Assembly: GCA_045116675.1 (NCBI GenBank)
Contig: JBGUMF010000004.1
Location: 1 to 63,780 of the forward strand
From: Bacteroidales bacterium
GTDB taxonomy: Bacteria; Bacteroidota; Bacteroidia; Bacteroidales; WCHB1-69
Length of the DNA stretch: 63,780 bases
Direction: 5' to 3'
The first letter of the stretch is position 1. Each line of letters starts with the position of its first letter. The notes below the pieces were generated by a model. It saw only the letters and a list, made by a program, of their open reading frames with translations, ran no database searches and was not told where the DNA came from. The position numbers were made by a program, and so were the translations under genes. Shown in pieces: positions 18,483-60,900 of this stretch.

Positions 18483-18558
18483 TGGTGTCTCAGCTGGGAT
18501 TCGAACCCAGGACCCCATCCTTAAAAGGGATGTGCTCTACCTGCTGAGCTACTGGGAC
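18483..18558 (-). tRNA. tRNA-Lys (anticodon UUU), CCA encoded
   Basis: A 76-nt cloverleaf folded by hand. D stem is GCTC/GAGC, anticodon stem CATCC/GGATG, loop CTTTTAA, T arm CTGGG-TTCGAAT-CCCAG, discriminator A plus CCA. There is one C4:A69 mismatch in the acceptor stem. Confidence 0.9.
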
Positions 18559-20440: not shown

Positions 20441-21757
20441 TTAGAAGGGCTTGGATTTGGGATCTGAAACAAAGATGTCCCTCACCTTGTTCCCATTGGA
20501 GAACTGGGCACTGTAGTGCAGCCTGCCGTCGGGTTTCCAGCATGACCATTTCCCTTCGCGCAGATGATTCTTGAATTGGCCCTGGAAGTGCTTTTTACCA
20601 TTATTGTAATATTCGGTGAAGGTGCCGTTGGGGATGTCGTGAACAAAATTCTGCTCACGCACCTTGACCTCCTGCACATTATAGAACACCCATTTGCCTT
20701 CTTTCAGGTCGTTGGCGTATTTCCCTTTGGCGACAATCTTCCCGTTTTGAGCATACTCGGTCCAAGTGCCGTTCTTGAGGTTGTCTTTATAGGTGCCCTT
20801 ACGCGACATCTTGCCGTTCTCCTCCCAGAAATAGGTGTAGGGGCCATTCCATTTGTTTTGCTTGTAGGTGATGATGTATTTCTGTTTACCGTCATCGTAC
20901 CAGCCTTGCCACTGGCCATCCATTTCACCCTCCTTGAAGGTGCCTTTGTCTTGGGTTTGGCCGTTGTGGTAATAAGCGGTCCAGAGGCCGTTTTCCTTGT
21001 CGTGGGCAAAAGGCCCTTCGCGCTGCAGGCGACCGTCCTCGTACCAAGCTTTCCAGATGCCTTCGCGTTTGCCGTTCACATAATTGCCTTTTTTCCAGAC
21101 TTTTCCGTTTTCATAATAATAGACCCACTCGCCGTGTTGCAATCCGTTTTCAAAATTGCCCCGGCTGCCGAGCGTGCCGTTCTCGTGGTAGAATTTCCAT
21201 TCGCCCTGTTGCAAGCCTTTCACAGACGAGCCTTCCATATCTTTCTGGCCGTTGCGGGTCCACCAGCATGCGTAGCCGTCCAACTCGCCCATCTTGTAGG
21301 AGCCTTCAAAATATTTGGCCCCGTCATCAAAGTATTCCGTCACAGGACCGTCCACGCTGTCAGCCACATACGTCACCTCTTTGAATAACTTGCCATTGGT
21401 GTGGTAAAACGTCCAATTACCGCTTCGCTTGCCGTTGGCGAACTGGCCTTTCGACTCCACTTGGCCAGACTGGTACCAGCTGGTGAAGGGCCCGTTTTCG
21501 GCGTTGTACTCCTGGGCCAGCTTTCCGTTGTCGAACCACACTCTCCACACGCCCACCTTCTTCCCGTCGCGGTAGTCGCCCTCGGTCCATTTCATCCCAT
21601 TGATGTGATAATAGACCCAATGGCCCTGTTCCAGGCCTTGGGCCTCCACACCCACTGACATCAGTTTGTTGTTTTTCCAATAGGTCTTAACCGTATCTTG
21701 GGCACTGACGGTCAAGCATATCCATGCCAAGAGGATTACAAGAGATAAGTTGCGCAT
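20441..21757 (-). CDS. secreted MORN-variant / YwqK-type repeat protein
   Basis: 438 aa. Signal peptide (...LTVSAQ), then about 16 tandem ~23-aa repeats of the form G.W..YY.NGK....G.Y.NG...G.W. Confidence 0.7.
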   Translation of the reverse strand: MRNLSLVILLAWICLTVSAQDTVKTYWKNNKLMSVGVEAQGLEQGHWVYYHINGMKWTEGDYRDGKKVGVWRVWFDNGKLAQEYNAENGPFTSWYQSGQVESKGQFANGKRSGNWTFYHTNGKLFKEVTYVADSVDGPVTEYFDDGAKYFEGSYKMGELDGYACWWTRNGQKDMEGSSVKGLQQGEWKFYHENGTLGSRGNFENGLQHGEWVYYYENGKVWKKGNYVNGKREGIWKAWYEDGRLQREGPFAHDKENGLWTAYYHNGQTQDKGTFKEGEMDGQWQGWYDDGKQKYIITYKQNKWNGPYTYFWEENGKMSRKGTYKDNLKNGTWTEYAQNGKIVAKGKYANDLKEGKWVFYNVQEVKVREQNFVHDIPNGTFTEYYNNGKKHFQGQFKNHLREGKWSCWKPDGRLHYSAQFSNGNKVRDIFVSDPKSKPF

Positions 21758-21779: not shown

Positions 21780-21787
21780 CAAAGATA
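21780..21787 (-). promoter_or_regulatory. -7 promoter box (TATCTTTG) for the MORN-repeat/MBL/folE operon
   Basis: Exact TAnnTTTG, 23 nt upstream of the ATG at 21757. Confidence 0.5.
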
Positions 21788-21840: not shown

Positions 21841-21947
21841 TTAAGGGGTGTTGGGAATTGGGCTTGGGGGGTGGGGGTTAGCCGTTAGCTATTGGCCGTT
21901 GGCTTTTGGCATATATATTTCTCTACTATAAACTCTAAACTCTAATC
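21841..21947. repeat. intergenic repeat element, copy A (left border of the C10 island)
   Basis: Contains the 27-mer gccgttagctattggccgttggctttt (21881-21907), identical to 27453-27479. It is flanked by related taagggg-ttggga-ttggg and ctct..taaactctaaactcta segments in the same order and orientation as copy B. Confidence 0.8.
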
Positions 21948-21948
21948 T

Positions 21949-23772
21949 TCATTGTTTCACCACGCGTTTTACCACTGCGCCGCTGTCCGTCTCCACGCGC
22001 AGCACATACACGCCCGCACACAACTCCCGAACATCCACCTCCGCCATGTTGGCATTCACATTCACTGTTTTCAACAGCTTCCCATATACATCGTAAAGCC
22101 GTATCCTATTCACTATTCCCTGTTCACTGACCACTGTAACCTGTGTCTGTGTGGGATTGGGGTAGATGTGAACGTAATCCTTTACGGTTGGTGTTTTGTG
22201 CAATGTGTTTTGGTCCGTCGTTAGCCTTTGGCTCCTGTTCTCCATGATTTGTGCTGGGTTAAAACGTGATGGTGTGTCATCACACGATGCGCATGGGGTG
22301 ATATAAGCATGAAAATCACTTCCTTGCGCAGCATGAAAACCATCGCGTAAAACGATTTCCTTGTGGGCGGCGTATTCGGAAGAGGCTCCCGAGGGGATTA
22401 TATGCCATGACGAGGGGAATGCACTGTTGTTGGCCGAACTTAGGAGCACCGCGGCTGCGTGGGGCACATTGTTGTACGATACCGGCGAGGTGTTTCCTTG
22501 TATATTGTAATAATCATCGTAATATTGCTCTAATGGCAAAATGAAATTGCAGTAGTCCTGCGTTGTGGCCGGATAGATGTTGAACACAGCCCGCTCCAGA
22601 TGATTCCAGTTATAGTTCCCGTCACCGTTGTGCTCAACAATACTGTCAATCGTACACCATGCATCAATTCCGCTTATATGCCCCCAATTGAAATGAAACA
22701 TGTCCGTAGCACTGTTATATCCGTCGCAGACAAAGGCATGGGCTCCCGTGTTATAATTGCTTGCATAATAGGACATTCCCGCATATAATACAGGCATTCC
22801 CATAATTAAATCTCCTTTTAGCAGATTTTTCCATGAAGACGTTGAATAATCCGATCGTATCAATCGTACAGCATCCGGATGATAACCGAAGGAGTCCACA
22901 AGGGCATTGCGCGCTTTAATAGGGGTGGTGAATGATTGACACGATAAACCTCCTATACAATAATCCATATCTGCCGCTTCTCCACAATCTGCCATCAAAC
23001 GGGCGATGGCGTTGCGCTCATTCTCAAAATTAGGGTTAATAAGAAGAACCCCATTAGAATCGATGTACAGTCCCAAAAGGTCCACCATATTACACCAATC
23101 ATACGGTTCCATCCTATTGGGTCTATAGATAGGATACTTCCAATAGTTCATGATTTGCGCCATGGCCGTGGCCACACAACCCGTGGGACATTTCCTTCCA
23201 CTCACGCTCGCACAAGAACATATGTGATAGGATTTTTTTACAAAATAATTAAAAGATTCACATGTGTTGTAGATATCTTTTGTTTGGTCCCACTTTGTAG
23301 TTAAAAAGGGTCCGTAAATTGTATTGGTTGTGCGGATAACTTCTGCGGACGGATCCAACAGCTCAGACCATTGCGGGTGCTCCTCTTGGTGCCGAAGGCT
23401 GTCAACCATATATCCAATGGAGAAACTGTAACCCCGAATAAAATATTTCAATCCCTCGGGAATGGAGACTGTGTCCGACAGCAGTCTTCCGCCTTCGGTG
23501 GTGTACATCAATACAGGAAGACAATTCTTCCACGAGGAAAGAACAACACTCAAACCGTTATCAAAGGATATTTCCCTCATCCTCAAATCAGGCCCGGACC
23601 GAAACTCAACAACCGTGTCAATTCGGGTTTCGTCCAGAGTATGATATTGCAGGTATCGTTGCGCAAAGTTCACGGCAGCCCTTCTGCTTTCCTCTATCGT
23701 GACGGCTGTCTGGGCTGACAGACACCATGAAGATGCAGTTATCAGTATTATAAACAAAATACTATTTTTCAT
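21949..23772 (-). CDS. C10 family (streptopain/SpeB-like) cysteine peptidase with N-terminal propeptide and T9SS C-terminal sorting domain
   Basis: 607 aa. Catalytic Cys block is GCVATAMAQIMNYWKYP and the His block is GAHAFVCDGYN. N-terminal pro-region is AAVNFAQRYL. C-terminal CTD is HIYPNPTQTQVTVV...VYVLRVETDSGAVVKRVVKQ. Confidence 0.85.
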   Translation of the reverse strand: MKNSILFIILITASSWCLSAQTAVTIEESRRAAVNFAQRYLQYHTLDETRIDTVVEFRSGPDLRMREISFDNGLSVVLSSWKNCLPVLMYTTEGGRLLSDTVSIPEGLKYFIRGYSFSIGYMVDSLRHQEEHPQWSELLDPSAEVIRTTNTIYGPFLTTKWDQTKDIYNTCESFNYFVKKSYHICSCASVSGRKCPTGCVATAMAQIMNYWKYPIYRPNRMEPYDWCNMVDLLGLYIDSNGVLLINPNFENERNAIARLMADCGEAADMDYCIGGLSCQSFTTPIKARNALVDSFGYHPDAVRLIRSDYSTSSWKNLLKGDLIMGMPVLYAGMSYYASNYNTGAHAFVCDGYNSATDMFHFNWGHISGIDAWCTIDSIVEHNGDGNYNWNHLERAVFNIYPATTQDYCNFILPLEQYYDDYYNIQGNTSPVSYNNVPHAAAVLLSSANNSAFPSSWHIIPSGASSEYAAHKEIVLRDGFHAAQGSDFHAYITPCASCDDTPSRFNPAQIMENRSQRLTTDQNTLHKTPTVKDYVHIYPNPTQTQVTVVSEQGIVNRIRLYDVYGKLLKTVNVNANMAEVDVRELCAGVYVLRVETDSGAVVKRVVKQ

Positions 23773-23776
23773 CGTT

Positions 23777-24313
23777 TCAGAAATTCAAGGTTATCCCCAC
23801 TCCATGGCGTGTCGGGCCGAACGACAGGGAAACAGGATAGGATTTTTGATTATAGGAAGAGGCAACACGGTCCAACTTCTTGTAACTGTCAAGAGTTAAG
23901 ATAAGAGCAGGGATTACTTCTAATATAGAAACCCCAAAACAAAAACCTCCAAAAATCATATCAATTAAATCCTCGAAATGTCGAGGCCCACCCACCATAA
24001 AATATTCAACATAAATCAAATCGCAAACCCAATATGTTGCTGCCGTCAGGCTAATTCCGCTCAGGACCCACAGTGGGATGGCGGCAATGAGTTCGCGGCG
24101 GGCTTTGCGATACAGGGTGAAGTCTTCGGAGGAAAGGGTGTTTTGCAAAGATGTCCTGTCCATCCTCATTCCGTTGTCGCCATTATAAAGGCGGCCGCGA
24201 ATACGCTCCAGATGAACAGGCGAAGTCTCAAGTGTTTTACCCAACGTGTCTTGGGCTGACAGGCACCATGTAGATGCGGTTATCAGTAATATGAACAAAA
24301 TACTTTTTTTCAT
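23777..24313 (-). CDS. small signal-peptide + 2-TM protein, paralogue 3 of an island-specific family
   Basis: 178 aa. Layout is signal peptide, ~55-aa soluble domain (LERIRGRLYNGDNGMRMDRTSLQNTLSSEDFTLYRKARR), two hydrophobic helices, and a conserved tail ...LDSYKKLDRVASSYNQKSYPVSLSFGPTRHGVGITLNF. Its stop is 4 nt before the protease ATG. Confidence 0.7.
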   Translation of the reverse strand: MKKSILFILLITASTWCLSAQDTLGKTLETSPVHLERIRGRLYNGDNGMRMDRTSLQNTLSSEDFTLYRKARRELIAAIPLWVLSGISLTAATYWVCDLIYVEYFMVGGPRHFEDLIDMIFGGFCFGVSILEVIPALILTLDSYKKLDRVASSYNQKSYPVSLSFGPTRHGVGITLNF

Positions 24314-24378
24314 CGTTTCAGAAATGTAAGTTTCTTTTATTGTGACGTTTATTGTCGTTCAATTCGAATTGTATTGAT

Positions 24379-24948
24379 TTAAAAACGGATTCCGATTCGC
24401 ATTGCGGGACCAGGGTAGCTAATGTCACAGCCTAGAAGAGCATACACACTTTTCCCATCTTTAAATCTATAATTGCACCCCGAAAAGAAGGAGATGTTGT
24501 AATAAACACCTCTTACCTCCTCCCAGCGTACTGGATTCTGGTCTTTTTTGCCCTGTGTGTACATGCCTACATTCCAATTAAGCATCAGCAACGGGGACCA
24601 TTTGAATTTTTTTAGCACAAGATAGCGCAAATTCAAGCCGGTTGAAAAACCAAGCGCATGGAATCCAGCTTCATGCTGGTACTGTCTGAAGGAAATGTTG
24701 TCGTATTTAAACTCCAAATCCAGTCCCACAACCAGATGTTGTCTGATAAGAATACCATGAGTTTCCCGGACAGACACACCCCGAGTGCATGAATTATTAT
24801 TTTTATAAAGACGAATTCCAAAACCGGCACCTACATCTATGGCATGATAGTATTCTATATGCTTCTTTGGGGGTTGGTTCTCCGATTGTGCCATACCGCA
24901 TATACATCCAAATAGAAGGATGAACAGGATTGAAATATTCGTTTTCAT
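24379..24948 (-). CDS. small outer-membrane beta-barrel-like protein
   Basis: 189 aa. Signal peptide, alternating hydrophobic/aromatic strand pattern, and C-terminal ...AMRIGIRF ending in Phe (OMP beta-signal-like). Confidence 0.5.
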   Translation of the reverse strand: MKTNISILFILLFGCICGMAQSENQPPKKHIEYYHAIDVGAGFGIRLYKNNNSCTRGVSVRETHGILIRQHLVVGLDLEFKYDNISFRQYQHEAGFHALGFSTGLNLRYLVLKKFKWSPLLMLNWNVGMYTQGKKDQNPVRWEEVRGVYYNISFFSGCNYRFKDGKSVYALLGCDISYPGPAMRIGIRF

Positions 24949-24951
24949 TGT

Positions 24952-25512
24952 CTAAAAATTCAGGGTTATCCCCACCCCATGGCGTGTCGGTCCGAAGGAC
25001 AGGGAAACTGGGTTCGTTTTTTGATTGTAGGAAGAAGCAACGCGGTCAATCTTCTTGAAACTGTCGAGTGTCAGTGTGATAGCAGGTGTAAAAAACACTA
25101 TTGAGACGAGTACGGCAAATCCACAAAAGCATCCACAGAAAATATCATCTACAGGATAAAACTCGTATTCGTCATACGGGAACGTCGTGTGTTTGAAATA
25201 TACATGGTAAGATATCGCTTCATACCCCCAATAGGTGGCCGCTCCCAAACAAATTCCGCTTAACGCCCAGAAAGGTATGGCAGCAATGTACTTTCGGCGG
25301 GCCTTCTGATAAAGGGCATAGTCATCTTGGGAAAGAATTTGACATAAAGATGTATTGTCTAATTTCATACCCGTTTCCCTATCACACAATCGGCCGCGAA
25401 CACGCTCCAATTGAACAGGCGAAGCCTCATGTGTTTTACCCAACGTGTCTTGGGCTGACAAGAACCATGTAGATGCGGTTATCAGTATTATGAACAAAAT
25501 ACTTTTTTTCAT
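24952..25512 (-). CDS. small signal-peptide + 2-TM protein, paralogue 2
   Basis: 186 aa with the same architecture and the same C-terminal ...VASSYNQKTNPVSLSFGPTRHGVGITLNF. Confidence 0.7.
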   Translation of the reverse strand: MKKSILFIILITASTWFLSAQDTLGKTHEASPVQLERVRGRLCDRETGMKLDNTSLCQILSQDDYALYQKARRKYIAAIPFWALSGICLGAATYWGYEAISYHVYFKHTTFPYDEYEFYPVDDIFCGCFCGFAVLVSIVFFTPAITLTLDSFKKIDRVASSYNQKTNPVSLSFGPTRHGVGITLNF

Positions 25513-25516
25513 CGTT

Positions 25517-26050
25517 TCAGAAATTCAAGGTTATTCCCACCCCGTGGCGTGTCGGCCCGAACGACAGGGAAACAGGATAGGATTTTTGATTATAGGAAGA
25601 AGCAACATGGTCCAACTTCTTGTAACTGTCCAATGTGAGAATGATGGCGGGTATGAAAGTTATCAGTGACATACCTAATGCTGAACAGCCCAAAATAAAA
25701 TAAACTAAAGATCCTCCGGCATCGGAATATGGTACATGAAAATAAGTGAGATCAATCATTGCACAATACCAGTTTGTTGCAAGTGTCAAGAAAACTCCAC
25801 TCAACGTCCACAGCGGGATGGCGGCAATGAGTTCGCGGCGGGCTTTCCGATACAGGGTGAAGTCTTCGGAGGAAAGGGTGTTTTGCAAAGATGTCCTGTC
25901 CATCTTCATTCCATTGTCGCCATTATAAAGGCGGCCGTAGTAACGCTCCAGATGTGTTGGGAAAGTACCTGTGGTGTCGTTTTTTGGATTTTGAGCGTAC
26001 AATGTGATCGACGACAGAGCCATAATCAACAACAAAATACTTTTTTTCAT
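25517..26050 (-). CDS. small signal-peptide + 2-TM protein, paralogue 1
   Basis: 177 aa with the same architecture. The start overlaps the stop of the upstream gene by 4 nt (ATGA). Confidence 0.7.
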   Translation of the reverse strand: MKKSILLLIMALSSITLYAQNPKNDTTGTFPTHLERYYGRLYNGDNGMKMDRTSLQNTLSSEDFTLYRKARRELIAAIPLWTLSGVFLTLATNWYCAMIDLTYFHVPYSDAGGSLVYFILGCSALGMSLITFIPAIILTLDSYKKLDHVASSYNQKSYPVSLSFGPTRHGVGITLNF

Positions 26051-27075
26051 CGTTCTGCCTCCTTTTCCTCCAATTGTTGAATCCTGTTTTCAAGGTCAAG
26101 AATATACAGCGTCATTTCTTCTATCTTCTTTAACAGCAGCATATTCATATCTCCGAGGTCCACACCGTTCTGTTGCACTTCCGAAGCGGTCGGTACCTCG
26201 GGCAGATGTCCATTGGATAGCACAAAATTTCTCAAATCCTGCAAATCCATCAAAGGGTAAGTCTTTTCAAAAACATAGTCGGGCCAGCAGGGACTGCCGC
26301 CAAGGGACACACGTACCTCCTTGGCACAAATATTGCCGTTGACCGTAAGCTTTGCCAATGGCGTGTTGGTTCCAATACCGACATTCCCGCTGTCGGACAG
26401 GAACAATCCATAATTGAATCCTGCGTTATAACAATCCCATACTTTCCAAAAATTCAGTCCAAAGCCGTCCGTGGCATTGTTCACGTATTCAATTCCCCAA
26501 GACCCGTAAGGACATGTATTGTTAACCTCGGATCCAAATAGAAGAGATCCATTGGTGGAGCCCGGAGCCTTAGCAGATGTACGTGAAATCAAGATGTTTT
26601 CATCCACAACGTGAATCTTCTGCTTGGGCTTTGACGTATTGAAACCCACATAACCGTTCGTGTCAACAACCAAGCCATGCCCATTATTCATGATTTTGAG
26701 GTTAGCCTTCTCACATTGATGAATGGAAGCCTCTATTCCTGATAGTTGAAAGACAAATCCATCATGTACAGTTGCACCGGTACTGCTATTTGTCAGTCGA
26801 AGGTTGTTGTTTGTTGGTTTTTGAAGTGGGTTATGTAAATGAAGGTTGGAAACAGGAGATTCTGTTCCAAGACCTATATAATAGTTATTTGAAGGCACAC
26901 ATACACGTGAGATATTATTAGTCTTGATTATGAAAGGGACGGCAGTGGTTGTCCCAATAAAAGAACTGGATGTGGCATTGCTGTTTCCTGTAAGTGACCA
27001 GTAGTTTGTCTGTGATTTAGCTGTCATAAAAGCAAAACAAACTAAAAAAAGGACAAACGTAAATTTTTTAAACAT
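26047..27075 (-). CDS. secreted tail-fibre-like protein with conserved C-terminal WPDYVF...HLP...LL.KIEE..LY module and terminal coiled coil
   Basis: Start set at the ATG at 27075 (MFKKFTFVLFLVCFAFMTAKSQ). N-terminus is W.LTGN...FIGT...NVGIGTNTPLAKLTVNG. The C-terminus CWPDYVFEKTYPLMDLQDLRNFVLSNGHLPEVP...MLLLKKIEEMTLYILDLE resembles the Bacteroidota 'tail fiber domain-containing protein' family as I remember it. Confidence 0.6.
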   Translation of the reverse strand: MFKKFTFVLFLVCFAFMTAKSQTNYWSLTGNSNATSSSFIGTTTAVPFIIKTNNISRVCVPSNNYYIGLGTESPVSNLHLHNPLQKPTNNNLRLTNSSTGATVHDGFVFQLSGIEASIHQCEKANLKIMNNGHGLVVDTNGYVGFNTSKPKQKIHVVDENILISRTSAKAPGSTNGSLLFGSEVNNTCPYGSWGIEYVNNATDGFGLNFWKVWDCYNAGFNYGLFLSDSGNVGIGTNTPLAKLTVNGNICAKEVRVSLGGSPCWPDYVFEKTYPLMDLQDLRNFVLSNGHLPEVPTASEVQQNGVDLGDMNMLLLKKIEEMTLYILDLENRIQQLEEKEAER

Positions 27076-27119: not shown

Positions 27120-27127
27120 CAAAGATA
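27120..27127 (-). promoter_or_regulatory. -7 promoter box (TATCTTTG) for the island operon
   Basis: Exact TAnnTTTG, 45 nt upstream of the ATG at 27075. Confidence 0.5.
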
Positions 27128-27157: not shown

Positions 27158-27179
27158 AAAGTGAGGGTACCATCACTTT
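27158..27179. promoter_or_regulatory. 22-bp near-perfect palindrome upstream of the island promoter (candidate operator)
   Basis: aaagtgagggtaccatcacttt has 10 of 11 positions complementary around a central GGTACC. It lies about 30-50 nt upstream of the -7 box. Confidence 0.35.
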
Positions 27180-27395
27180 CGTCAAATTTTTTCTGCATTC
27201 ACCCCATATATTGAATTTTCACCCCAAAAAGATGGAAATTTCATTTTTTTTGTCTAACAAATAGAAAAAGGTCCGGAAAAATCCTCTGGCCTTTTCGCAC
27301 ATGTATGCCTTTCGCGGCGGGCACACCTTTTCTTCGCGGCACACGTCTGCCGCGCCGCGATATTGTGTGCGGCGGCCTTATTCCTACAGATATGC

Positions 27396-27419
27396 AACGC
27401 CTAACGGCGTTTTTTTTTT
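27396..27419 (+). terminator. orphan plus-strand intrinsic terminator
   Basis: Stem aacgcc/ggcgtt with loop taac, followed by T10 and then directly by G9. No plus-strand ORF lies upstream of it. Confidence 0.5.
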
Positions 27420-27432
27420 GGGGGGGGGTGAT

Positions 27433-27509
27433 GTAAGGGTATTGGGAGTTGGGCCGTTAGCTATTGGCCGTTGGCTTTTTCTCTCAACTCTAAACTCTCA
27501 ACTCTAAAC
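27433..27509. repeat. intergenic repeat element, copy B (right border of the C10 island)
   Basis: Same 27-mer (27453-27479) and the same flanking segment order as copy A. It lacks the ~18-nt G-rich insert of copy A. The tail is ctctcaactctaaa x2. Confidence 0.8.
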
Positions 27510-27540
27510 GAAAGACGGCGGAATCTCCTTTCTTGTTTTT

Positions 27541-27562
27541 GAGACGCGATGAATCGCGTCTC
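27541..27562 (-). terminator. perfect 9-bp hairpin 3 nt after the stop of the Na+ symporter gene
   Basis: gagacgcga-tgaa-tcgcgtctc. There is no T-tract on the minus strand. Confidence 0.45.
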
Positions 27563-27565
27563 TAC

Positions 27566-28936: not shown

Positions 28937-28944
28937 CAAAGATA
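28937..28944 (-). promoter_or_regulatory. -7 promoter box (TATCTTTG) for the Na+ symporter gene
   Basis: Exact TAnnTTTG, 19 nt upstream of the ATG at 28918. Confidence 0.5.
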
Positions 28945-54925: not shown

Positions 54926-57900
54926 TTACTTCTTTACCAATCGCTTTGTCACGATACCCTTTTCGGTTTCAATGCGGACGAAGTAGATGCCTTCGGCAAA
55001 CGGGGTCATGTCGATGCGTGTCAGGTTTGCATCCACTTTTTGAACCAATAATTGTTTGCCGTACACATCATACACCGTCACGTTGTCAATAGTGAATAGT
55101 GAATGGTGAATGGTGAACTGGCCTTGTGTCGGGTTGGGATACAGCGAAACAAATCGCGCAATGTCGGCAATGCCTGTCGTGTCAATGTTCTCGTTATTGC
55201 CCAACGTGCGGAAGTGGACGGTGTCGGAAGGATCGCTCTCCCACTGTCCGTAACACAAAGCTTTCACTTGGACGACATATTCGGTGTTAGTGTCCAAACT
55301 GTTCAGGCTGATGGTGGTATTTTCTGTACCGATGCCTGAAATGATAGGATTCTGCTCCTCCGCCGGCCAGAGTTCGAGGTACCAGTAGTTCTCGTCACCG
55401 CCCGGTGTCCAGTTAAAGGTGGCGTTGGTGTATCCGATATTGCTGACGGTCAGATTGGAAGGCCGTTGACAATCAATTACATCCGTGGTGGAGACGAGGA
55501 TATTGTCGATGCCGCAATGGGTTTGGACGTAATTCGAAGTGCTCAAACGGAAGGCTATGTAACCGTGCGCCGGCACATTTTGGTACGTGTAGAACTTGAC
55601 CGTGTCGAACGCGCCACCGATATCGTACACATTGGCAACGGTCTTCAAAGGCACAAAGGTGGTGTAGTCCATATTATCCGTCACGTAGCCCACGGTCAGC
55701 ATGGCTGCGGTGTCGGAATTGTACATACGCTTCCAGAAGATAATGTTGAGTCGGTTCAGAGAGTCGAGGAATTCGGGCATGACGACGTAAGAGTCTGCGC
55801 CCTCGTTGCGGGCAATCATCATCAGGGCGTTCGGATAGGTATAGTTGAAGTTCTGATTTACGATATGAGGCAGTTTGAGACCGGAATTGGTAACGTAAGC
55901 GTACCAGCATCCGGGCACCGTGCCGTTACTGTTCAGGGCAACACCTTGATAGGAATCGAAATTTTCAGTATAAGGCAGCGGTTTGGCCGACACGCAGGCG
56001 GTGCGCACGGTGATGGGCGCAATCCAGAAGCTCTGGTCGGTGGCGTCGCAATAGGCTCTCAAATAGAAATCATAGTCCACGCCTTCCGCCAAACCTGTGA
56101 TGGTGAACGGCACCGTATCGGCTATCACCATGTTGGGTGCCAGATCCAAATCAAAACCGCTCGGACCGTAGGCAATCTGCCAGTGGTCCTGCGTGCTGAC
56201 CGTATCCAGCCACGACAGCGTAATGCTGTTTTCCGTCTGACCAATGGATTCAATGAATACCGGTTCGATACAGGTGGGGATGCGCACCAGGGAGAGGGCG
56301 TCGATGAAGCATGAGTGGTAGTTGCTGCTGCCGCTGGAGGTGTTCACCATCTTGAAGGCGATATATTTGCCCGTGCCGGTGTAACTGTCGAACGGAACGG
56401 TGATTTCACTCCATCCATTGCCGCTCGGGGTTACGGTCTGCACCAAAGTGAACGTGCTCGTGTCTTCGGGGTTGGTCATCACGCCCACCTGGATATTGCC
56501 AGTAGAGCTGCTACCTTTGATCTTGAAAATCACCTGCAGGCTGTCGAGGTTGAGGTTGTTGCCCACCGGAGGCATGGATCCGATGCAGTATTGGCCACCA
56601 CCGGTGTAGAAATACATGGAGGCGTTGCCGTCGGCAGCGGTGAACATGCTAAGGTACGGGAACCAGTTGATGTGGTTGTTCTCCCGCGAGCTGTTGGTCA
56701 TCTTGTCCCAGCAGGTGGGGTATGTGTTCACGTAGTTGTAGTTGCTGGAGGTGCCATAGGTGTCGAAACTCTCAAAGTAAGGCACAGAGTCGATGGACAC
56801 GCAGCGGGTGCGGAAGGAGGTCACGGTGGACCAGTCGCTAAAGGTGCTGTCGGCGCAGGCGGAACGCACATACACATCGTAGAAGGTGCCGTCGGCAAGG
56901 CCTGTGATGGTGACGGGATTGTCCGTTGTGGTGACGTATGTGCTGGAGCCCGGCGCATCGGGATGGAATCCCTGCGGACCATAGGCAACCTGCCAGCTAG
57001 TCTCCAAACGTCCCGGTGTCCAGCCCATCTGTACGGAGTGGAGCTGGATGTTGGAGATGGAGGGGTTCACAGGCTTCACGCATACGGGCGCATTGTCCAC
57101 TAACAGGTTGTCGATATAGAGGTCGTAGCCGGGAGATCCCTTGGAGCGGAATGTGATGTAGTGGCCGGTACCGACATACGAGGTCAACGGCACAGTGAAC
57201 TCGTTCCAGACCGTGGAGCGGGCGTGGACAGACTCCACTAACGTGAAGGTGCTCGTATCCATCGGGTTGGTCATCACACCGACATCCACGAAGCCGTCCG
57301 CCGTATTGAATTTTCCGAGGAAGGAAAGCTGCAGGTAGGCGATGGTGTCGGTGATTTCCGGCAGGGACAGGTAAACATATTTGTCAAACGTGCGGCTGAT
57401 GGCCATGGCTCCCGGCCAGCTGTAGTAGTATTGCAGGCTCAAATCGGACAGATGCGTGTTGGCGTTGCCGGTTTTGGTCCAGCAGTTCGGGAATACAGAA
57501 TGGTTGTAGGTGGGACGTGTGCCATAGCTGTCGAAATCCTCATAGTAGGGAATGGACGTGACGGGCTGGCAGCTCGTGTAAAGGAGGGTGGACAGAGACC
57601 AGTCGGAGGGATCGCCGTTCGGGCAGATGTTGCGCACGTAGAATTCGTAATGGACATCGCCGCCAATACCCGCAATGTGTGCGATGTTGGTGTCGATGAT
57701 GTGCGGGACGGAATCTTCAGGGTTGAAGCCGACAGGACCATACACATACTCCCACTCCTGCACTAACGGGGTCACCGGCCAGGAAACCTCGCACCAGTCA
57801 GAACCCACATTAGTAACGGCTACGTTTTGCGGAGCCGAACAGACCGTGGTGTTGATGGAGAAGTTGTCGATATACACATAGCTGCTGTTCGTACCACTGG

Positions 57901-60900
57901 AAACAAACGTTTTCTTCAAGGCGATGTATCGGCCGGCCGGTAAGTTGTAATCGGAAAGGTACAACACCACATCCGACCAGTTGTCCGAAGTGCCATACAT
58001 GGGATAAATCGTGTCAAGGGGCACAAAAGCACTCAGATTCTGCGGATTTTCGGTGATGCCGAAAATAAGGTAGAAGTTTGAATAGAAGCTCTCTCTCATT
58101 TTAAAAGAGACCTTCACATCATTCATGTTGATGGTGGAATCCAGTGCCGGCGGGCAAACAATAACATGTTGGCCCGTGTTTACCGTTATATACAAACCTC
58201 CCGGACTGGAATAGTGAGAGGTGGTAATGCTCGGTTTGTTGGATAAGTTGACGGTGTTGTTCCGAATCCAGCAGGTGGGGAATGGCGAGCCTGTGGTTCC
58301 GTAGGTGTCAAAATTTTCAATGTAGGGAAGTTGGGAGATCGGATCGCAGTAGGTGGTGGTAGTTTGCTCATCGGAATACTCGCTCTCATCAGTGGTAGAG
58401 CATATCGAACACACCTTATAAATGTATTTGGTACCGCTTGTAAGGCCCGTGACGTGGCAGATGGTGTCATTGACGGTGAGGTATGACCACACCAAATCGT
58501 TCTGAGCTTTGAAAGCCACCTTCCACTGCTGCTCGTTGCCGCCGCGGGTCCAGCTCACGTCAAACCAGGTGTTGCCCATGTCGGCGATCTTGACAGCCAA
58601 CGGTTTGAAGCAGGTGGGGATGCGTTCCACCAAAATGTCGTCTATGTACATCATGGAAGAGTTGTAAGGTCCGGCAGCAAAGGCAATATAGCCGTCACCG
58701 GTCGTATTCCCGTTGAAGCGGGTGATGTGGTACTGCCATTCGCCATAATGCGGCCATGCGGCGGTGTCCCACGGCGTGAATGTATCGAAATCATCGGGGT
58801 CAGACATCGTGCCAACCATCAGATTGTAATTGGTGCCGTTCGGCATCAGATGGTAGAAGGAGACCTGCAAGTCGGAAACGTTGAGGGTGGTGTCCAACTC
58901 CGGCAGTACGGCCCAACCGATATTGTTGCCGTTGGTGCCCCTACGCAAATACAACGACTTGCCTCCGGAATGGTGATAATTGGTCTTTACGATGGGTAAG
59001 TAGGAGGTGCTGGTACCTGTGGTATTCGAAATCCAGCAGTTGGGAACATCATCGGTGACATCGCTGTCAAAGTTATGGTTGTAAGGCAGGTTGATAATGA
59101 TACCGCAAGGGGTTGTGAAGGTGACGGCATTGCTGATACGGCTAATGCCCGTACTGCAGGTGGTGCGCACCTGGACGGTGTATTGCGTGTTGAAGACCAA
59201 CCCGGTAAGCGTGTAAAGACTGTCGTTGATATTGGAAATGATGGTCCAGTCTCGGTCGAATTTGGATTTGTACATCAGATCGCAGGAGATCATATTCGGG
59301 TCGTTGTGCCAATAGAGGGAAGCCGTCTGATCTGTAGTGCTAAGGACGGTCAGCTGTGTCGGAGTGGCACAGGGGGTGGAGTAGTAGATGTCCACGTCAT
59401 CCACGCGCCAATTGCCGCTAGCGGATGCATGGCGGATGCGGAAGACAATGTACTTGTTTGTTCCCATATTGGACACGCCGGAAAAATTGACCTCTTCAAG
59501 ATAATAGGTATTGGTAGCAGCAACATTTATGGTGGATACCCATTCAAAATCGGAGGTGTCCATAGGATCGTTGGAGACGCCAATTTCCAAATCGCCGCAG
59601 TAAGATGCGGAAGAGGAGCGGGCTGCATAGAAGCTCATGGTCAGATCCTGAATAGGAGCCGCGATGGCCGGTGTGGCCACCCATGTGTAGTTGCAGGGGA
59701 TATTCAAGCTATGGCTTGTAGAGTGACTCTGCGAGGAGGTGTTGTTTATGCCGGGAGCCGAGTAGAGTTTGGAGATGATGGACCAGCACTCCAGAGGACT
59801 ATCCCCTTCAAAGTCATTACTGTAGGGGATAAAGACGGAATTGAAACAACGTGTCTTGAATTTCTCGGCAAAAGAGTAGGCACTGCTACCGCCCTGACAA
59901 TGGGCTTTTACCTTGAACTCATATTGGGTAGCATCAAGCAGACCTGTCACATTATAGAATGTGTCGGTGAGGTTGGGAATTTCCGTCCATACAAAGTCGT
60001 CCACCGATTTATAAGCCAATGTATAAGAAGTGGAAGCCACATTCCAAGGGGTCCAACAGACCTTGATGGAAGTAGGTGTGCCGCCCACATAGCGGATGTT
60101 TTCAGGATGATAACATGTATAGGTGCTGGGATAGACCTCCACATTGTCCACACAGAAGTTGTTGGTTAATGAATCGATTTTCAAACCCACCAAGGCAAGA
60201 TGTCCAGTTCCATAATAGTTGGAAAGAGGCACTTCGTAGAAATGACCACCTTTCAGAAAATGAACAGTATCGATGGGAGTGAAACTGTTCATGATGGAGG
60301 TCTTGTCGGTGATGTTGGTCACAACACCTACCGCCATTGTACTTATGTTATCGGCCAAACTGGTATAACAATAGAATCGCAGCGTCAGGGTGCTGATGGG
60401 CGCATCCAGTGTGGGTAGTACAGCGTAGTTGTTACCTTGGCCCGTCTGTCCGATAGGCTTGCTTTGGAAGCACAGGTTTCTCCGTAAAGAATAGCTGTTA
60501 GCCTGTCCGGATGTACTTACGTACGGATAACCGTAGTTGTCGCCGCCGGAATTGGCTTTCGACCAGCAATCAGGAACGACAAACCCGGCATTGGCCGGAG
60601 CGTAGAAGTCGTCAAAATTCTCCATGTAGGGCACGCTCGACACCTGGCAGGTAGTCGAAAAGGTGAAGGTTTTGGAGATGCTGTTGTCGGCGGTGGCGCA
60701 CTCGGAGCGGACGATGACATCAAACGAATAGTTTTCCAACACCGACAGACCGTAGATGGTGAAAGTAGTATCCAAGACGCCAGTCACCGTGTTCCAGCTG
60801 CCCTCCGAGGATTGCTTGTACTGGACGACGAATGGAGCAGTGCCCTGAAAAGCGTGCCAGCCTATTGTGACATAGTCTGAACCCACCTCCGCAATGCTGA

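What the first reader, a model, noticed from the sequence alone, without database searches (positions are those of the whole stretch)
21949..27075. Uncharacterised six-gene operon coupling a T9SS-exported C10 protease to a tail-fibre-like protein, three 2-TM paralogues and a small OM barrel
All six genes are on the minus strand with 4-nt overlaps or 3-65-nt gaps. They sit behind one exact -7 box (27120-27127) and a palindrome (27158-27179). No terminator-like hairpin appears before the repeat element at 21.9 kb. C10 proteases in Bacteroides and Prevotella are reported, as I recall, to be paired with small lipocalin/staphostatin-like inhibitor lipoproteins. No such gene is present here. The protease is instead preceded by membrane proteins with a variable core and an 8-strand-sized barrel. 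This could be a protease maturation/anchoring module, a self-protection (immunity) set, or a surface delivery system. All three readings are inference.
Basis: partly seen in the sequence, partly recalled or inferred. Interest (0 to 1): 0.7.

Follow-up and report, generated by a model that had tools for sequence, protein, structure and literature searches.

The report
Mobile secreted-protease and fibre gene cassette
A rumen Bacteroidales genome carries a small, mobile block of six same-strand genes that encodes a secreted cysteine protease, a phage-like fibre protein and several undescribed small envelope proteins. The pairing of this fibre family with secreted enzymes turns out to be common in Bacteroidota and is so far unexplained.

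Summary
Six minus-strand genes (21949-27075) lie 4 nt overlapping or 3-65 nt apart, behind one well-placed TATCTTTG box. They form a low-GC block flanked by direct repeats.

- **Gene 6** is an interpain/streptopain-type C10 protease with a GCX_COOH domain and a T9SS type-A sorting domain.
- **Gene 1** is a fibre protein related to Bdellovibrio MAT fibres. Its C-terminal module also ends real phage fibre proteins.
- **The three small paralogues** belong to an undescribed family (73 clusters, no Pfam). The confident model shows a long hydrophobic helical hairpin capped by two beta-hairpins, with an invariant OMP-like C-terminal motif ending in Phe.
- **The "barrel"** is an ORFan; its barrel fold is not shown.

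Small protein followed by C10 recurs in relatives down to 32% identity, but distant family members stand alone. The stronger link is between the fibre family and T9SS cargo: about 14 of 24 independent loci, with C10, C25 and GH16 enzymes. Every fibre-coupled cargo scanned with NCBIfam (C10, C25, GH16) carries GCX_COOH.

The cassette is mosaic and mobile. Its function is inferred only. I favour an outer-membrane fibre/enzyme display or handling module. A membrane-tethered protease restraint is the main rival.

The parts
27120..27127 (-). Bacteroidetes-type -7 promoter box TATCTTTG, 45 nt upstream of the fibre gene's ATG
   Evidence: Read directly. The same octamer precedes the two neighbouring minus-strand genes and none lies in the internal gaps. 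Conserved in L002 and L031.
27158..27179 (.). Imperfect palindrome AAAGTGATGGTACCCTCACTTT (20/22); possible operator, function unknown
   Evidence: Conserved only in L002 and L031, absent upstream of the L001/L006 versions.
26047..27075 (-). Sec-exported fibre protein (342 aa). Beta-helix fibre repeats (VGIGT..P..KLxV) followed by a conserved C-terminal helical module (about residues 238-342).
   Evidence: A profile of 36 homologues hits Bdellovibrio MAT fibres 8ond at E=3e-15 and 8ojn at 5e-9. PHROG tail fibre 4e-6. AF2 pLDDT 76; the top Foldseek hits are the same fibres. The C-terminal module is shared with phage fibre proteins. More than 5,700 homologues, none with a Pfam domain.
25517..26050 (-). 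Small protein A (177 aa): signal peptide, N beta-hairpin, two long helices with a hydrophobic tip, C beta-hairpin ending GITLNF
   Evidence: AF2 pLDDT 88. No fold or sequence relative in PDB, BFVD or Pfam. Family of 73 clusters.
24952..25512 (-). Small protein B (186 aa), a paralogue with a longer hairpin tip; travels with the 189-aa gene
   Evidence: The B + 189-aa pair is also found in L002, L007 and L031.
24379..24948 (-). 189-aa exported ORFan ending RIGIRF; a putative small outer-membrane beta protein, barrel fold not shown
   Evidence: Only one 97-100% cluster in 5.8 billion proteins. No Pfam, NCBIfam or PDB hit. No hydrophobic helix; the beta-amphipathy test is not significant.
23777..24313 (-). 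Small protein C (178 aa), the paralogue always found next to the protease gene
   Evidence: DNA-identical to L006 from codon 92 into the first 30 codons of the C10 gene.
21949..23772 (-). C10 cysteine protease precursor (607 aa): signal peptide, N-terminal pro-region, catalytic domain, GCX_COOH domain, T9SS type-A sorting domain
   Evidence: PF01640 125.5 bits; TIGR04183 53.3 bits; NF045639 46.8 bits. Interpain A 1.8e-19 and streptopain 1.5e-18. Cys199 and His345 located.
22678..23220 (-). C10 catalytic domain (residues 185-365)
   Evidence: Alignment to interpain A.
22291..22404 (-). GCX_COOH '3-coathanger stack' domain (residues 457-494)
   Evidence: The same domain is found in the fibre-coupled C10 cargos scanned and in the GH16 and C25 cargos.
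21952..22167 (-). T9SS type-A C-terminal sorting domain (residues 536-607)
21881..21948 (.). Downstream copy of the flanking direct repeat, immediately after the C10 stop codon
   Evidence: Also found after the C10 gene in L004 and L006.
27453..27503 (.). Upstream copy of the flanking direct repeat, after the stop codon of the SNF transporter gene
   Evidence: Also present upstream in L002, L032, L033 and L031.

Best explanation
What it is (shown). The block is about 5.5 kb, low in GC, flanked by repeats and prone to recombination. It sits in a rumen Bacteroidales genome and is laid out as one transcription unit. It encodes a T9SS-secreted interpain/streptopain-type C10 cysteine-protease precursor preceded by five Sec-exported envelope proteins.

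How I think it works (inferred).
1. The first gene makes a short trimeric beta-helix fibre of phage origin. Cellular members of this fibre family sit directly upstream of T9SS cargo enzymes, and every coupled cargo scanned with NCBIfam carries a GCX_COOH domain before the sorting tail (C10 here; C25 and GH16 elsewhere). I therefore take fibre and enzyme to be a functional pair at the cell surface or on vesicles, with the fibre acting as an adhesin or scaffold that positions the secreted enzyme.
2. The three small paralogues belong to a new family of exported helical-hairpin proteins. Their moderately hydrophobic, Gly/Ala-rich hairpin, basic residues at the hairpin base, acidic tip and invariant OMP-type C-terminal motif (hydrophobic at -7, -5 and -3, Phe last) argue for outer-membrane rather than inner-membrane residence. 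In this clade they have been recruited next to the protease gene and multiplied by tandem duplication and recombination. I take them to be outer-membrane accessory subunits that anchor or hold the fibre/protease module.
3. The 189-aa ORFan is a further exported, probably outer-membrane, protein that moves together with paralogue B.
For: Layout and promoter.

C10, GCX_COOH and sorting domain. A second T9SS cargo in the window (54926-62380) shows that the genome uses T9SS.

Fibre:
- PDB profile hits to MAT fibres, fold hits, PHROG.
- The C-terminal module is shared with phage proteins that sit next to a baseplate wedge or inside a head-tail-sheath module.

Fibre and T9SS cargo adjacency in about 14 of 24 independent loci:
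- C10: window clade, L011, L020, L028, L039.
- GH16: L035.
- C25: L047, which is next to sprA, and L065.
- Other sorting-domain proteins: L051, L054 (two), L058, L062.
- L048, where the cargo lies upstream.

GCX_COOH is present in all fibre-coupled cargos tested and absent from three cargos not immediately downstream of a fibre gene (one of which, L048, lies just upstream of one).

Small proteins:
- AF2 pLDDT 88.
- Family statistics: net charge +1.3 and +2.0 at the hairpin base, -1.25 at the tip; mean Kyte-Doolittle hydropathy (KD) of the hydrophobic helix segments 1.3-1.55; 23% Gly+Ala; terminal Phe in 37 of 37; hydrophobic residues at -3, -5 and -7 in 37 of 37.
- Small followed by C10 at a 3-4 nt gap in L019, L021 and L028, and in L029 where the small gene is cut by the contig end.

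Mobility and mosaicism: GC, flanking repeats, the same promoter with paralogue B and the ORFan in an unrelated context (L031), and DNA-identical tracts within otherwise 20%-diverged genes.
Against: - No experiment or complex prediction links any two of the products.
- The fibre has no known signal for crossing the outer membrane.
- The fibre family pairs with unrelated small proteins elsewhere (lipoproteins in L010, L011, L020, L039, L047) or with none (L035, L065). The small 2-helix proteins are therefore not a general partner.
- Distant members of the small family are stand-alone genes among housekeeping genes.
- In L002 the protease gene carries a 998-nt deletion while the other five genes are intact. 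In L031 paralogue B and the ORFan occur without fibre or protease. The parts can therefore persist separately.
- Outer-membrane localisation rests on sequence logic only.
- The adjacency counts come from opportunistically fetched loci, not a census.
Confidence: 0.4

Rival explanations
1. Self-protection. The small gene just upstream of the protease gene encodes a compartment-restricted restraint or inhibitor. It would keep the C10 precursor harmless in the periplasm or at the outer membrane until export. This would be the functional analogue of Spi, the staphostatins and the B. fragilis Bfi proteins. Here the gene is the 2-helix protein; in other loci it is a 161-213 aa lipoprotein. The extra paralogues would be spare or variant restraints.
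For: - Cysteine proteases of families C10 and C47 are co-transcribed with dedicated inhibitors. bfp1 has two (PMC2873492).
- The slot between fibre and cargo is filled in seven cysteine-protease lineages. These are the window clade, L011, L020, L028 and L039 for C10, and L047 for C25, plus small followed by C10 without a detected fibre gene nearby in L019 and L021.
- The slot is empty for the GH16 cargo.
- The small gene is tightly coupled to the C10 start (3-4 nt gap).
Against: - The predicted fold is a membrane helical hairpin, unlike any known protease inhibitor. There is no fold match.
- There is no similarity to the C10 pro-region beyond the signal peptide.
- Distant family members have no protease nearby.
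- L065 has a C25 cargo without a slot gene.
- L031 keeps paralogue B without any protease.
Confidence: 0.2
2. No joint function. The block is a recombination hot spot where genes for unrelated exported proteins have accumulated. Adjacency would reflect shared mobility and shared promoter use, not a shared mechanism.
For: - Mosaic identity tracts.
- Copy number of the small gene varies from 1 to 3 between close relatives.
- Fibre-gene remnants with internal deletions occur in L031 and L047.
- The protease gene is deleted in L002.
- The ORFan and paralogue B move as a separate pair.
Against: Fibre followed by T9SS cargo adjacency recurs across distant Bacteroidota, with different enzymes and different flanks. 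Start/stop overlaps of 4 nt are kept. GCX_COOH is shared by the coupled cargos of three enzyme classes.
Confidence: 0.15
3. Interbacterial antagonism module. The fibre would target other cells, the protease would be the effector, and the variable small membrane proteins would be immunity factors arrayed in tandem.
For: - Tandem, divergent, recombining small membrane proteins resemble immunity arrays.
- One fibre homologue precedes an RHS/DUF6443 protein (L055).
- Phage-type fibres are used for targeting by tailocins and by Bdellovibrio (PMC10769870).
Against: - There is no delivery machinery.
- The protease is an ordinary T9SS zymogen-type cargo.
- Other coupled cargos are GH16 and gingipain-like enzymes.
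- Exported immunity proteins with an OMP-type terminus would be unusual.
- No defence or toxin-system model matched.
Confidence: 0.08
4. Prophage remnant. The fibre gene would be a leftover phage tail-fibre gene and the protease a cargo (moron) gene.
For: The fibre's C-terminal module occurs in real phage structural modules. The block has low GC and flanking repeats.
Against: - No other phage gene lies in or next to the block.
- The cellular fibre proteins carry Sec signal peptides and are short (about 200-420 aa in most loci), unlike the phage versions (612 to more than 2,287 aa, no signal peptide).
- There is no match in 50,697 deposited phage genomes.
Confidence: 0.03

Closest known systems
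Interpain A (Prevotella intermedia) and streptopain SpeB; T9SS-secreted C10 proteases such as PrtT/periodontain of Porphyromonas
   Same: Gene 6 has a C10 catalytic domain with the Cys and His motifs. Its best solved relatives are interpain A and streptopain. It has a Sec signal peptide, an N-terminal pro-region and a T9SS type-A sorting domain.
   Different: It has an added GCX_COOH domain. Identity to the solved enzymes is low (E about 1e-19 over about 190 residues). The genetic company is different: a fibre and helical-hairpin proteins.
Protease/inhibitor gene pairs: SpeB-Spi, staphopain-staphostatin, B. fragilis Bfp-Bfi (PMC2873492)
   Same: A small exported-protein gene is tightly coupled to a C10 protease gene and may be co-transcribed with it. 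More than one small gene per protease has a precedent (bfi1A and bfi1B).
   Different: The small proteins here are predicted helical-hairpin membrane proteins. They are neither lipocalin-like barrels nor propeptide mimics. They show no sequence or fold similarity, and the family also occurs away from proteases.
Bdellovibrio bacteriovorus MAT (mosaic adhesive trimer) fibres, PDB 8ond/8ojn/8oml (PMC10769870), and phage tail fibres with C-terminal chaperone modules
   Same: Both have a signal peptide followed by beta-helix fibre repeats with the capping-loop motif. Sequence and fold matches were found. The terminal module is shared with phage fibres.
   Different: The protein here is much shorter (342 aa against about 1,000). 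In this family the C-terminus is the conserved end and the N-terminal part varies, whereas MATs have a conserved N-terminal domain and variable tips. No S74 chaperone-protease domain was detected. The gene is genetically tied to T9SS cargo.
Glycine-zipper two-helix outer-membrane lipoproteins (SlyB/PCP type); comparison from my own knowledge
   Same: These are small exported proteins with a moderately hydrophobic, Gly/Ala-rich helical hairpin that escapes inner-membrane retention and sits in the outer membrane.
   Different: The small proteins here have no lipobox (signal peptidase I site ending AQ). There is no Pfam glycine-zipper hit. They have beta-hairpin caps and an OMP-like C-terminal Phe motif instead of a C-terminal globular domain.

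Membership tests
Peptidase family C10 (streptopain) | Pfam PF01640 match above the gathering score | tested here: met
   125.5 bits against a cut-off of 26, residues 185-365
Peptidase family C10 (streptopain) | Catalytic Cys and His in the conserved motifs | tested here: met
   Cys199 in TGCVATAMAQ and His345 in GAHAFVCDGYN align with interpain A
Peptidase family C10 (streptopain) | Proteolytic activity and zymogen maturation | not testable with these tools
   About 160 residues lie between the signal peptide and the catalytic domain. The SpeB zymogen aligns only from residue 152.
T9SS type-A cargo | C-terminal sorting domain (TIGR04183 / PF18962) | tested here: met
   53.3 bits against 23, and 48.6 bits against 27, residues 536-607
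T9SS type-A cargo | N-terminal Sec signal peptide | tested here: met
   MKNSILFIILITASSWCLSAQ read from the translation; no predictor was run
T9SS type-A cargo | T9SS machinery in the same genome | tested here: inconclusive
   No machinery gene was identified in the window (only selected genes were scanned). A second cargo (2,484 aa, fn3 repeats plus sorting domain, 54926-62380) is present.
Trimeric beta-helix fibres (MAT / phage tail-fibre type) | Sequence similarity to solved fibre beta-helices, including the capping-loop motif | tested here: met
   Profile against PDB: 8ond E=3e-15, 8ojn 4.7e-9. PHROG tail fibre 4e-6.
Trimeric beta-helix fibres (MAT / phage tail-fibre type) | Fold similarity | tested here: inconclusive
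   The top seven Foldseek hits are the same fibres (probability 1.0), but TM is only about 0.2. This is expected for a monomer model of an intertwined trimer.
Trimeric beta-helix fibres (MAT / phage tail-fibre type) | Trimer formation | not testable with these tools
   No multimer prediction was available
Fibres with an S74 intramolecular chaperone | Peptidase_S74 domain with the Ser-Lys dyad at the C-terminus | tested here: not met
   No Pfam hit at E<=0.1. No PDB hit for profile positions 258-349. No invariant Ser at the junction. The module is nevertheless shared with phage fibres.
Staphostatin/Bfi-type protease inhibitors | Small lipocalin-like beta-barrel encoded next to the protease gene | tested here: not met
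   The small proteins are predicted to be helical hairpins. There are no PDB sequence or fold hits. The 189-aa ORFan has no PDB hit.
Glycine-zipper 2-TM outer-membrane lipoproteins | Lipobox and a Pfam glycine-zipper domain | tested here: not met
   There is no Cys after the signal peptide. None of the 37 members hits a glycine-zipper family.
Outer-membrane proteins recognised by BAM | C-terminal signal: terminal aromatic residue, hydrophobic at -3, -5 and -7 | tested here: met
   Small family: Phe in 37 of 37 and hydrophobic residues in 37 of 37 at each position. ORFan...MRIGIRF. The motif alone does not prove localisation.
8-stranded outer-membrane beta-barrels (OmpA/OmpX/OmpW type) | Family profile match or predicted barrel | tested here: inconclusive
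   For the 189-aa ORFan:
- No Pfam or NCBIfam hit.
- Beta-amphipathic segments: 3 observed against 1.9 +/- 1.3 in shuffles.
- hhalign to barrel-like proteins of related loci gave probability 2%.
Operon | Same strand, short gaps, one promoter, no internal terminator | tested here: met
Operon | Co-transcription | not testable with these tools
   Needs RNA data

The most novel reading that the evidence does not exclude
The fibre family defines an undescribed T9SS-linked surface system. A Sec-exported, phage-derived trimeric fibre would bind the GCX_COOH domain of the cargo encoded next to it. It would then either ride out through the T9SS pore with that cargo or capture it on the surface, giving enzyme-tipped fibres. 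These would be held by small outer-membrane anchors, among them a new class of alpha-helical-hairpin outer-membrane proteins inserted through an OMP-type C-terminal signal.
Probability: 0.15. Interest if true: 0.8.

Novelty: new variant of a known kind. Interest (0 to 1): 0.55.

Why it matters
T9SS cargo proteases such as gingipains, interpain and PrtT are major virulence and nutrition factors of Bacteroidota. How individual cargos are positioned, restrained or displayed after export is only partly understood.

- A widespread fibre family (more than 5,700 detected homologues, no Pfam domain) turns out to be genetically tied to T9SS cargos of several enzyme classes. This gives a concrete, testable lead on cargo handling.
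- The small proteins are a confidently modelled family with no known fold relative. They combine a hydrophobic helical hairpin with an OMP-type terminus. If they reside in the outer membrane, they would add to the very short list of alpha-helical outer-membrane proteins.
- For rumen biology, the cassette is a mobile, recombining source of secreted proteolytic capacity.

Tried and rejected
- **Small proteins:** Pfam, NCBIfam, PHROGs and PADLOC gave nothing. PDB sequence search and Foldseek against PDB and BFVD gave only generic helical hairpins at E>0.03.
- **189-aa ORFan:** the homologue search found only itself. The PDB search was empty. My crude beta-amphipathy count was not above shuffles. 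hhalign to barrel-like proteins of related loci gave probability 2%. 'Barrel' therefore stays a guess.
- **Slot lipoprotein of L011:** no match against PDB, so its inhibitor nature is also untested.
- **Palindrome as a conserved operator:** conserved only in the closest loci.
- **Metagenome scan:** The narrower A5 biases the loci found towards closer relatives.
- **Regulator and Cys-rich lipoprotein:** the membrane LytTR regulator and Cys-rich lipoprotein seen upstream in related loci are absent from the window.
- **RNA elements:** Rfam and tRNA scans found none in or beside the block.
- **Deposited phage genomes:** no copy of the fibre's C-terminal module.
- **Conserved hairpin tip of paralogue C:** I first read this as purifying selection, then rejected it. 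The DNA is identical too, so it reflects recent recombination.

Full report

Yes. The window has six minus-strand ORFs at the stated places:
- fibre-like gene 26047-27075;
- small A 25517-26050;
- small B 24952-25512;
- a 189-aa gene 24379-24948;
- small C 23777-24313;
- C10 protease 21949-23772.

The junctions are a 4-nt overlap followed by gaps of 4, 3, 65 and 4 nt. The mechanical ORF of the first gene extends to 27198. However, 35 homologues start at the MFKK/MKK methionine (27075), and the promoter box lies inside the extension, so 27075 is the real start.

TATCTTTG sits at 27127-27120, 45 nt upstream. The TAnnTTTG motif is not over-represented in the window (39 found, 32 expected). The identical octamer also lies just upstream of the neighbouring MORN-repeat gene (21780-21787) and the SNF transporter gene (28937-28944). 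None lies in the internal gaps.

The palindrome at 27158-27179 is imperfect (20/22). Terminator-like hits inside the block are at chance level.

GC is 0.42-0.46 inside and 0.52-0.56 outside. The 'repeat element at 21.9 kb' has a second direct copy at 27453-27503. The block is therefore bracketed by repeats, each placed right after a stop codon.

**2. What the six products are**

*Gene 6.* It is a C10 peptidase (PF01640, 125.5 bits) with a GCX_COOH '3-coathanger stack' domain (NF045639) and a T9SS type-A sorting domain. Its closest solved relatives are interpain A (1.8e-19) and streptopain. Cys199 and His345 sit in the conserved motifs. A second T9SS cargo (2,484 aa, fn3 repeats) lies at 54926-62380.

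*Gene 1.* It has no Pfam domain, yet more than 5,700 homologues were detected.
- A profile of 36 homologues hits the beta-helix parts of Bdellovibrio MAT fibres (8ond 3e-15, 8ojn 5e-9).
- The AF2 model (pLDDT 76) has the same fibres as its top Foldseek hits.
- PHROGs gives 'tail fibre'.
- The family is most conserved at its C-terminus, a helical module of about 100 residues ending in a coiled coil.
- That module also ends much larger proteins without signal peptides in uncultured viral contigs. One follows a baseplate wedge gene. Another sits between major head, adaptor and sheath genes. Pairwise E is 3e-17.
- No S74 chaperone domain is detectable. No deposited phage genome carries the module.

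*The three small proteins.* They are 52-68% identical.
- The word-index search found 8 relatives. The exhaustive profile search found 73 clusters at 50% identity.
- Almost all are unnamed metagenome proteins. Only two GTDB species were recovered by the scan, which used narrow peptide patterns taken from the closest relatives; both are rumen Bacteroidales MAGs.
- With a 37-sequence alignment, AF2 gives a confident model (pLDDT 88). It shows a signal peptide, a beta-hairpin (34-43), two long helices (61-104 and 111-157) forming a hairpin, and a C-terminal beta-hairpin (161-176).
- Nothing in PDB, BFVD or Pfam resembles it.
- Family-wide statistics: the distal halves of the helices are moderately hydrophobic (mean KD 1.3-1.55) and 23% Gly+Ala. 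The base of the hairpin is basic (+1.3 and +2.0). The tip loop is acidic (-1.25). The last residue is Phe in 37 of 37, with hydrophobic residues at -3, -5 and -7 in 37 of 37.
- After signal-peptide cleavage the basic flanks would be on the periplasmic side. That contradicts the positive-inside rule for an inner-membrane hairpin, while the terminus looks like an outer-membrane-protein signal. I therefore infer outer-membrane residence. This is an inference, not a result.

*The 189-aa protein.* It has a signal peptide, no hydrophobic helix, and ends in RIGIRF. It is an ORFan: one cluster in 5.8 billion proteins. No test supports a barrel.

**3. Conserved neighbourhoods**

*Close relatives of the block.*
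- They occur in other rumen contigs with 1, 2 or 3 small genes (L001, L004-L009, L032-L034).
- They sit in at least two different genomic contexts: between the SNF transporter and MORN-repeat genes here, and between an HTH/LytTR-type regulator gene and coaE in L001 and L006.
- The ORFan occurs only together with paralogue B (L002, L007, L031).
- In L031 the same promoter, a fused start/end remnant of the fibre gene, paralogue B and the ORFan sit next to lysine-aminomutase genes, with no protease.
- In L002 the protease gene has a 998-nt deletion that removes His345.
- Window and L006 are DNA-identical from codon 92 of small C to codon 30 of C10, and across C10 codons 452-571. They are about 20% diverged elsewhere.
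- Small B and small C share their signal peptide with C10.

The block is therefore a mosaic, duplicating, mobile cassette.

*More distant small-protein homologues (32-40% identity).*
- They are again followed at a 3-4 nt gap by a C10 gene in L019, L021 and L028, and in L029 where the small gene is cut by the contig end.
- They are preceded by a fibre gene in L017 and L028; in L020 a fibre gene lies further upstream in the same locus.
- A 170-aa subgroup (L022-L027) and the most distant members (L040-L045) are stand-alone, the latter among housekeeping genes.

*The fibre family.* This is the more general partner of secreted enzymes. A fibre gene is followed by one of these arrangements:
- an unrelated 161-213 aa lipoprotein and then a C10 gene (L011, L020, L039);
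- an unrelated lipoprotein and then a C25 gene (L047, directly after sprA);
- directly, a GH16 cargo (L035) or a C25 cargo (L065);
- other sorting-domain proteins (L051, L054 twice, L058, L062).

In L048 the cargo lies upstream. That makes about 14 of 24 independent cellular loci.

All fibre-coupled cargos I tested carry GCX_COOH between the enzyme and the sorting domain: six C10, the GH16 and one C25. Three cargos not immediately downstream of a fibre gene do not (one of them, L048, lies just upstream of one).

Small barrel-like or OMP-like proteins (178-239 aa) recur downstream in L010, L021, L035 and L047. They are not detectably related to the ORFan here.

Some loci have a membrane LytTR regulator and a Cys-rich 162-169 aa lipoprotein upstream (L006, L011, L035). 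The window has neither.

**4. How it most likely works**

*Shown:* gene content, layout, family assignments, mobility and the neighbourhood statistics above.

*Inferred:*
- The cassette is one transcription unit delivering a T9SS protease precursor plus envelope accessories.
- Fibre and cargo act as a pair at the surface. The shared GCX_COOH domain is the obvious candidate contact.
- The small hairpin proteins and the ORFan are outer-membrane components that anchor or restrain the module.

I give this 0.4.

*Rivals:*
- The main rival (0.2) is that the slot gene is a protease restraint analogous to Spi, the staphostatins or Bfi (PMC2873492). In its favour, the slot is filled for cysteine proteases and empty for GH16. 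Against it are the fold, the stand-alone relatives and L065.
- 'No joint function' (0.15) is favoured by the mosaicism and by partial versions of the block. It is disfavoured by the recurrence of fibre followed by cargo across distant lineages.
- Antagonism (0.08) and prophage remnant (0.03) have little support.

**5. Comparison with what is known, and novelty**

The protease is an ordinary new member of C10 T9SS cargos. The fibre is a short, inverted-polarity relative of MAT and phage fibres: the C-terminus is conserved and the N-terminal part varies.

I found no paper that describes its link to T9SS cargo, the GCX_COOH co-occurrence or the small-protein family. One proteomics paper lists a 362-aa 'tail fiber domain-containing protein' in Tannerella vesicles (PMC10682907). 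I could not check whether it belongs to this family.

I rate the finding a new variant of a known kind: a protease cargo locus with accessory genes. One element could turn out to be new in kind if the fibre-cargo link is mechanistic.

**6. Verdict**

- Observation: confirmed.
- Interpretation: partly supported.
- Interest: 0.55.

Noticed in passing
window 21881-21948 and 27453-27503; L031 3897-3911; L004 4650-4664; L006 6909-6923: An intergenic repeat (…AGAGTTTAGAGTT…AAAAGCCAACGGCCAATAGCTAACGGC…CCCAA…) sits right after stop codons on both sides of the block. It also appears at the ends of related cassettes in other contigs. It may be the recombination substrate that moves the cassette, or a lineage-wide post-gene element.
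   Followed up: partly
L031 4230-5423; L047 10254-10397: Two independent remnants of fibre genes in which the first few codons are fused to the last ~10-40 codons (internal deletion). In both cases the downstream small genes are intact.
   Followed up: partly
L002 13066-13077, corresponding to window 21976-22973: The syntenic sister MAG (RUI486) lacks 998 nt of the C10 gene, covering the catalytic His, GCX_COOH and most of the sorting domain. The five upstream genes are intact. This could be a real deletion or an assembly artefact.
   Followed up: partly
window 23710-23772, 24251-24313, 25450-25512: The signal peptides of small B, small C and the C10 protease are nearly identical (MK[KN]SILFI[IL]LITAS[TS]W[CF]LSAQ). 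This shows that the duplication unit ran from mid-small-gene into the start of the next gene.
   Followed up: yes
L006 2123-3148 and 1137-1646; L011 572-1576 and 1782-2288; L035 3074-3874 and 5407-5895: Many related fibre/cargo loci are preceded by a multi-pass membrane protein with LytTR (often plus winged-helix) DNA-binding domains and by a conserved Cys-rich 162-169 aa lipoprotein. These may form a dedicated regulatory pair. Neither is present in this window.
   Followed up: partly
L035 6795-8264; L047 7815-10064; L011 4153-5520; L039 7518-9365: The GCX_COOH '3-coathanger stack' domain lies between the catalytic domain and the T9SS tail in cargos of three unrelated enzyme classes when they follow a fibre gene.
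   Followed up: partly
L055 328-4722: One fibre homologue is followed by an RHS-repeat/DUF6443 protein (1,181 aa) instead of a T9SS cargo.
   Followed up: no
window 54926-62380 (-): A giant 2,484-aa protein with many fibronectin type III repeats and a T9SS sorting domain. It is a second T9SS cargo in the window.
   Followed up: partly
window 20441-21757 (-): A 438-aa signal-peptide protein made of MORN-variant repeats. It has partial similarity to the Leptospira LIC20035 adhesin model, has its own TATCTTTG box, and lies directly downstream of the cassette.
   Followed up: no
window 27200-27565: A 366-nt gene-free stretch upstream of the cassette. It holds a perfect 9-bp stem (GAGACGCGA…TCGCGTCTC) right after the transporter's stop codon, a C9/A10 homopolymer pair and GC-rich inverted repeats. 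No Rfam match.
   Followed up: partly
window 18483-18558 (-): tRNA-Lys (TTT), 3.3 kb from the low-GC block. It is not adjacent to the block, so it is not an obvious integration site.
   Followed up: no
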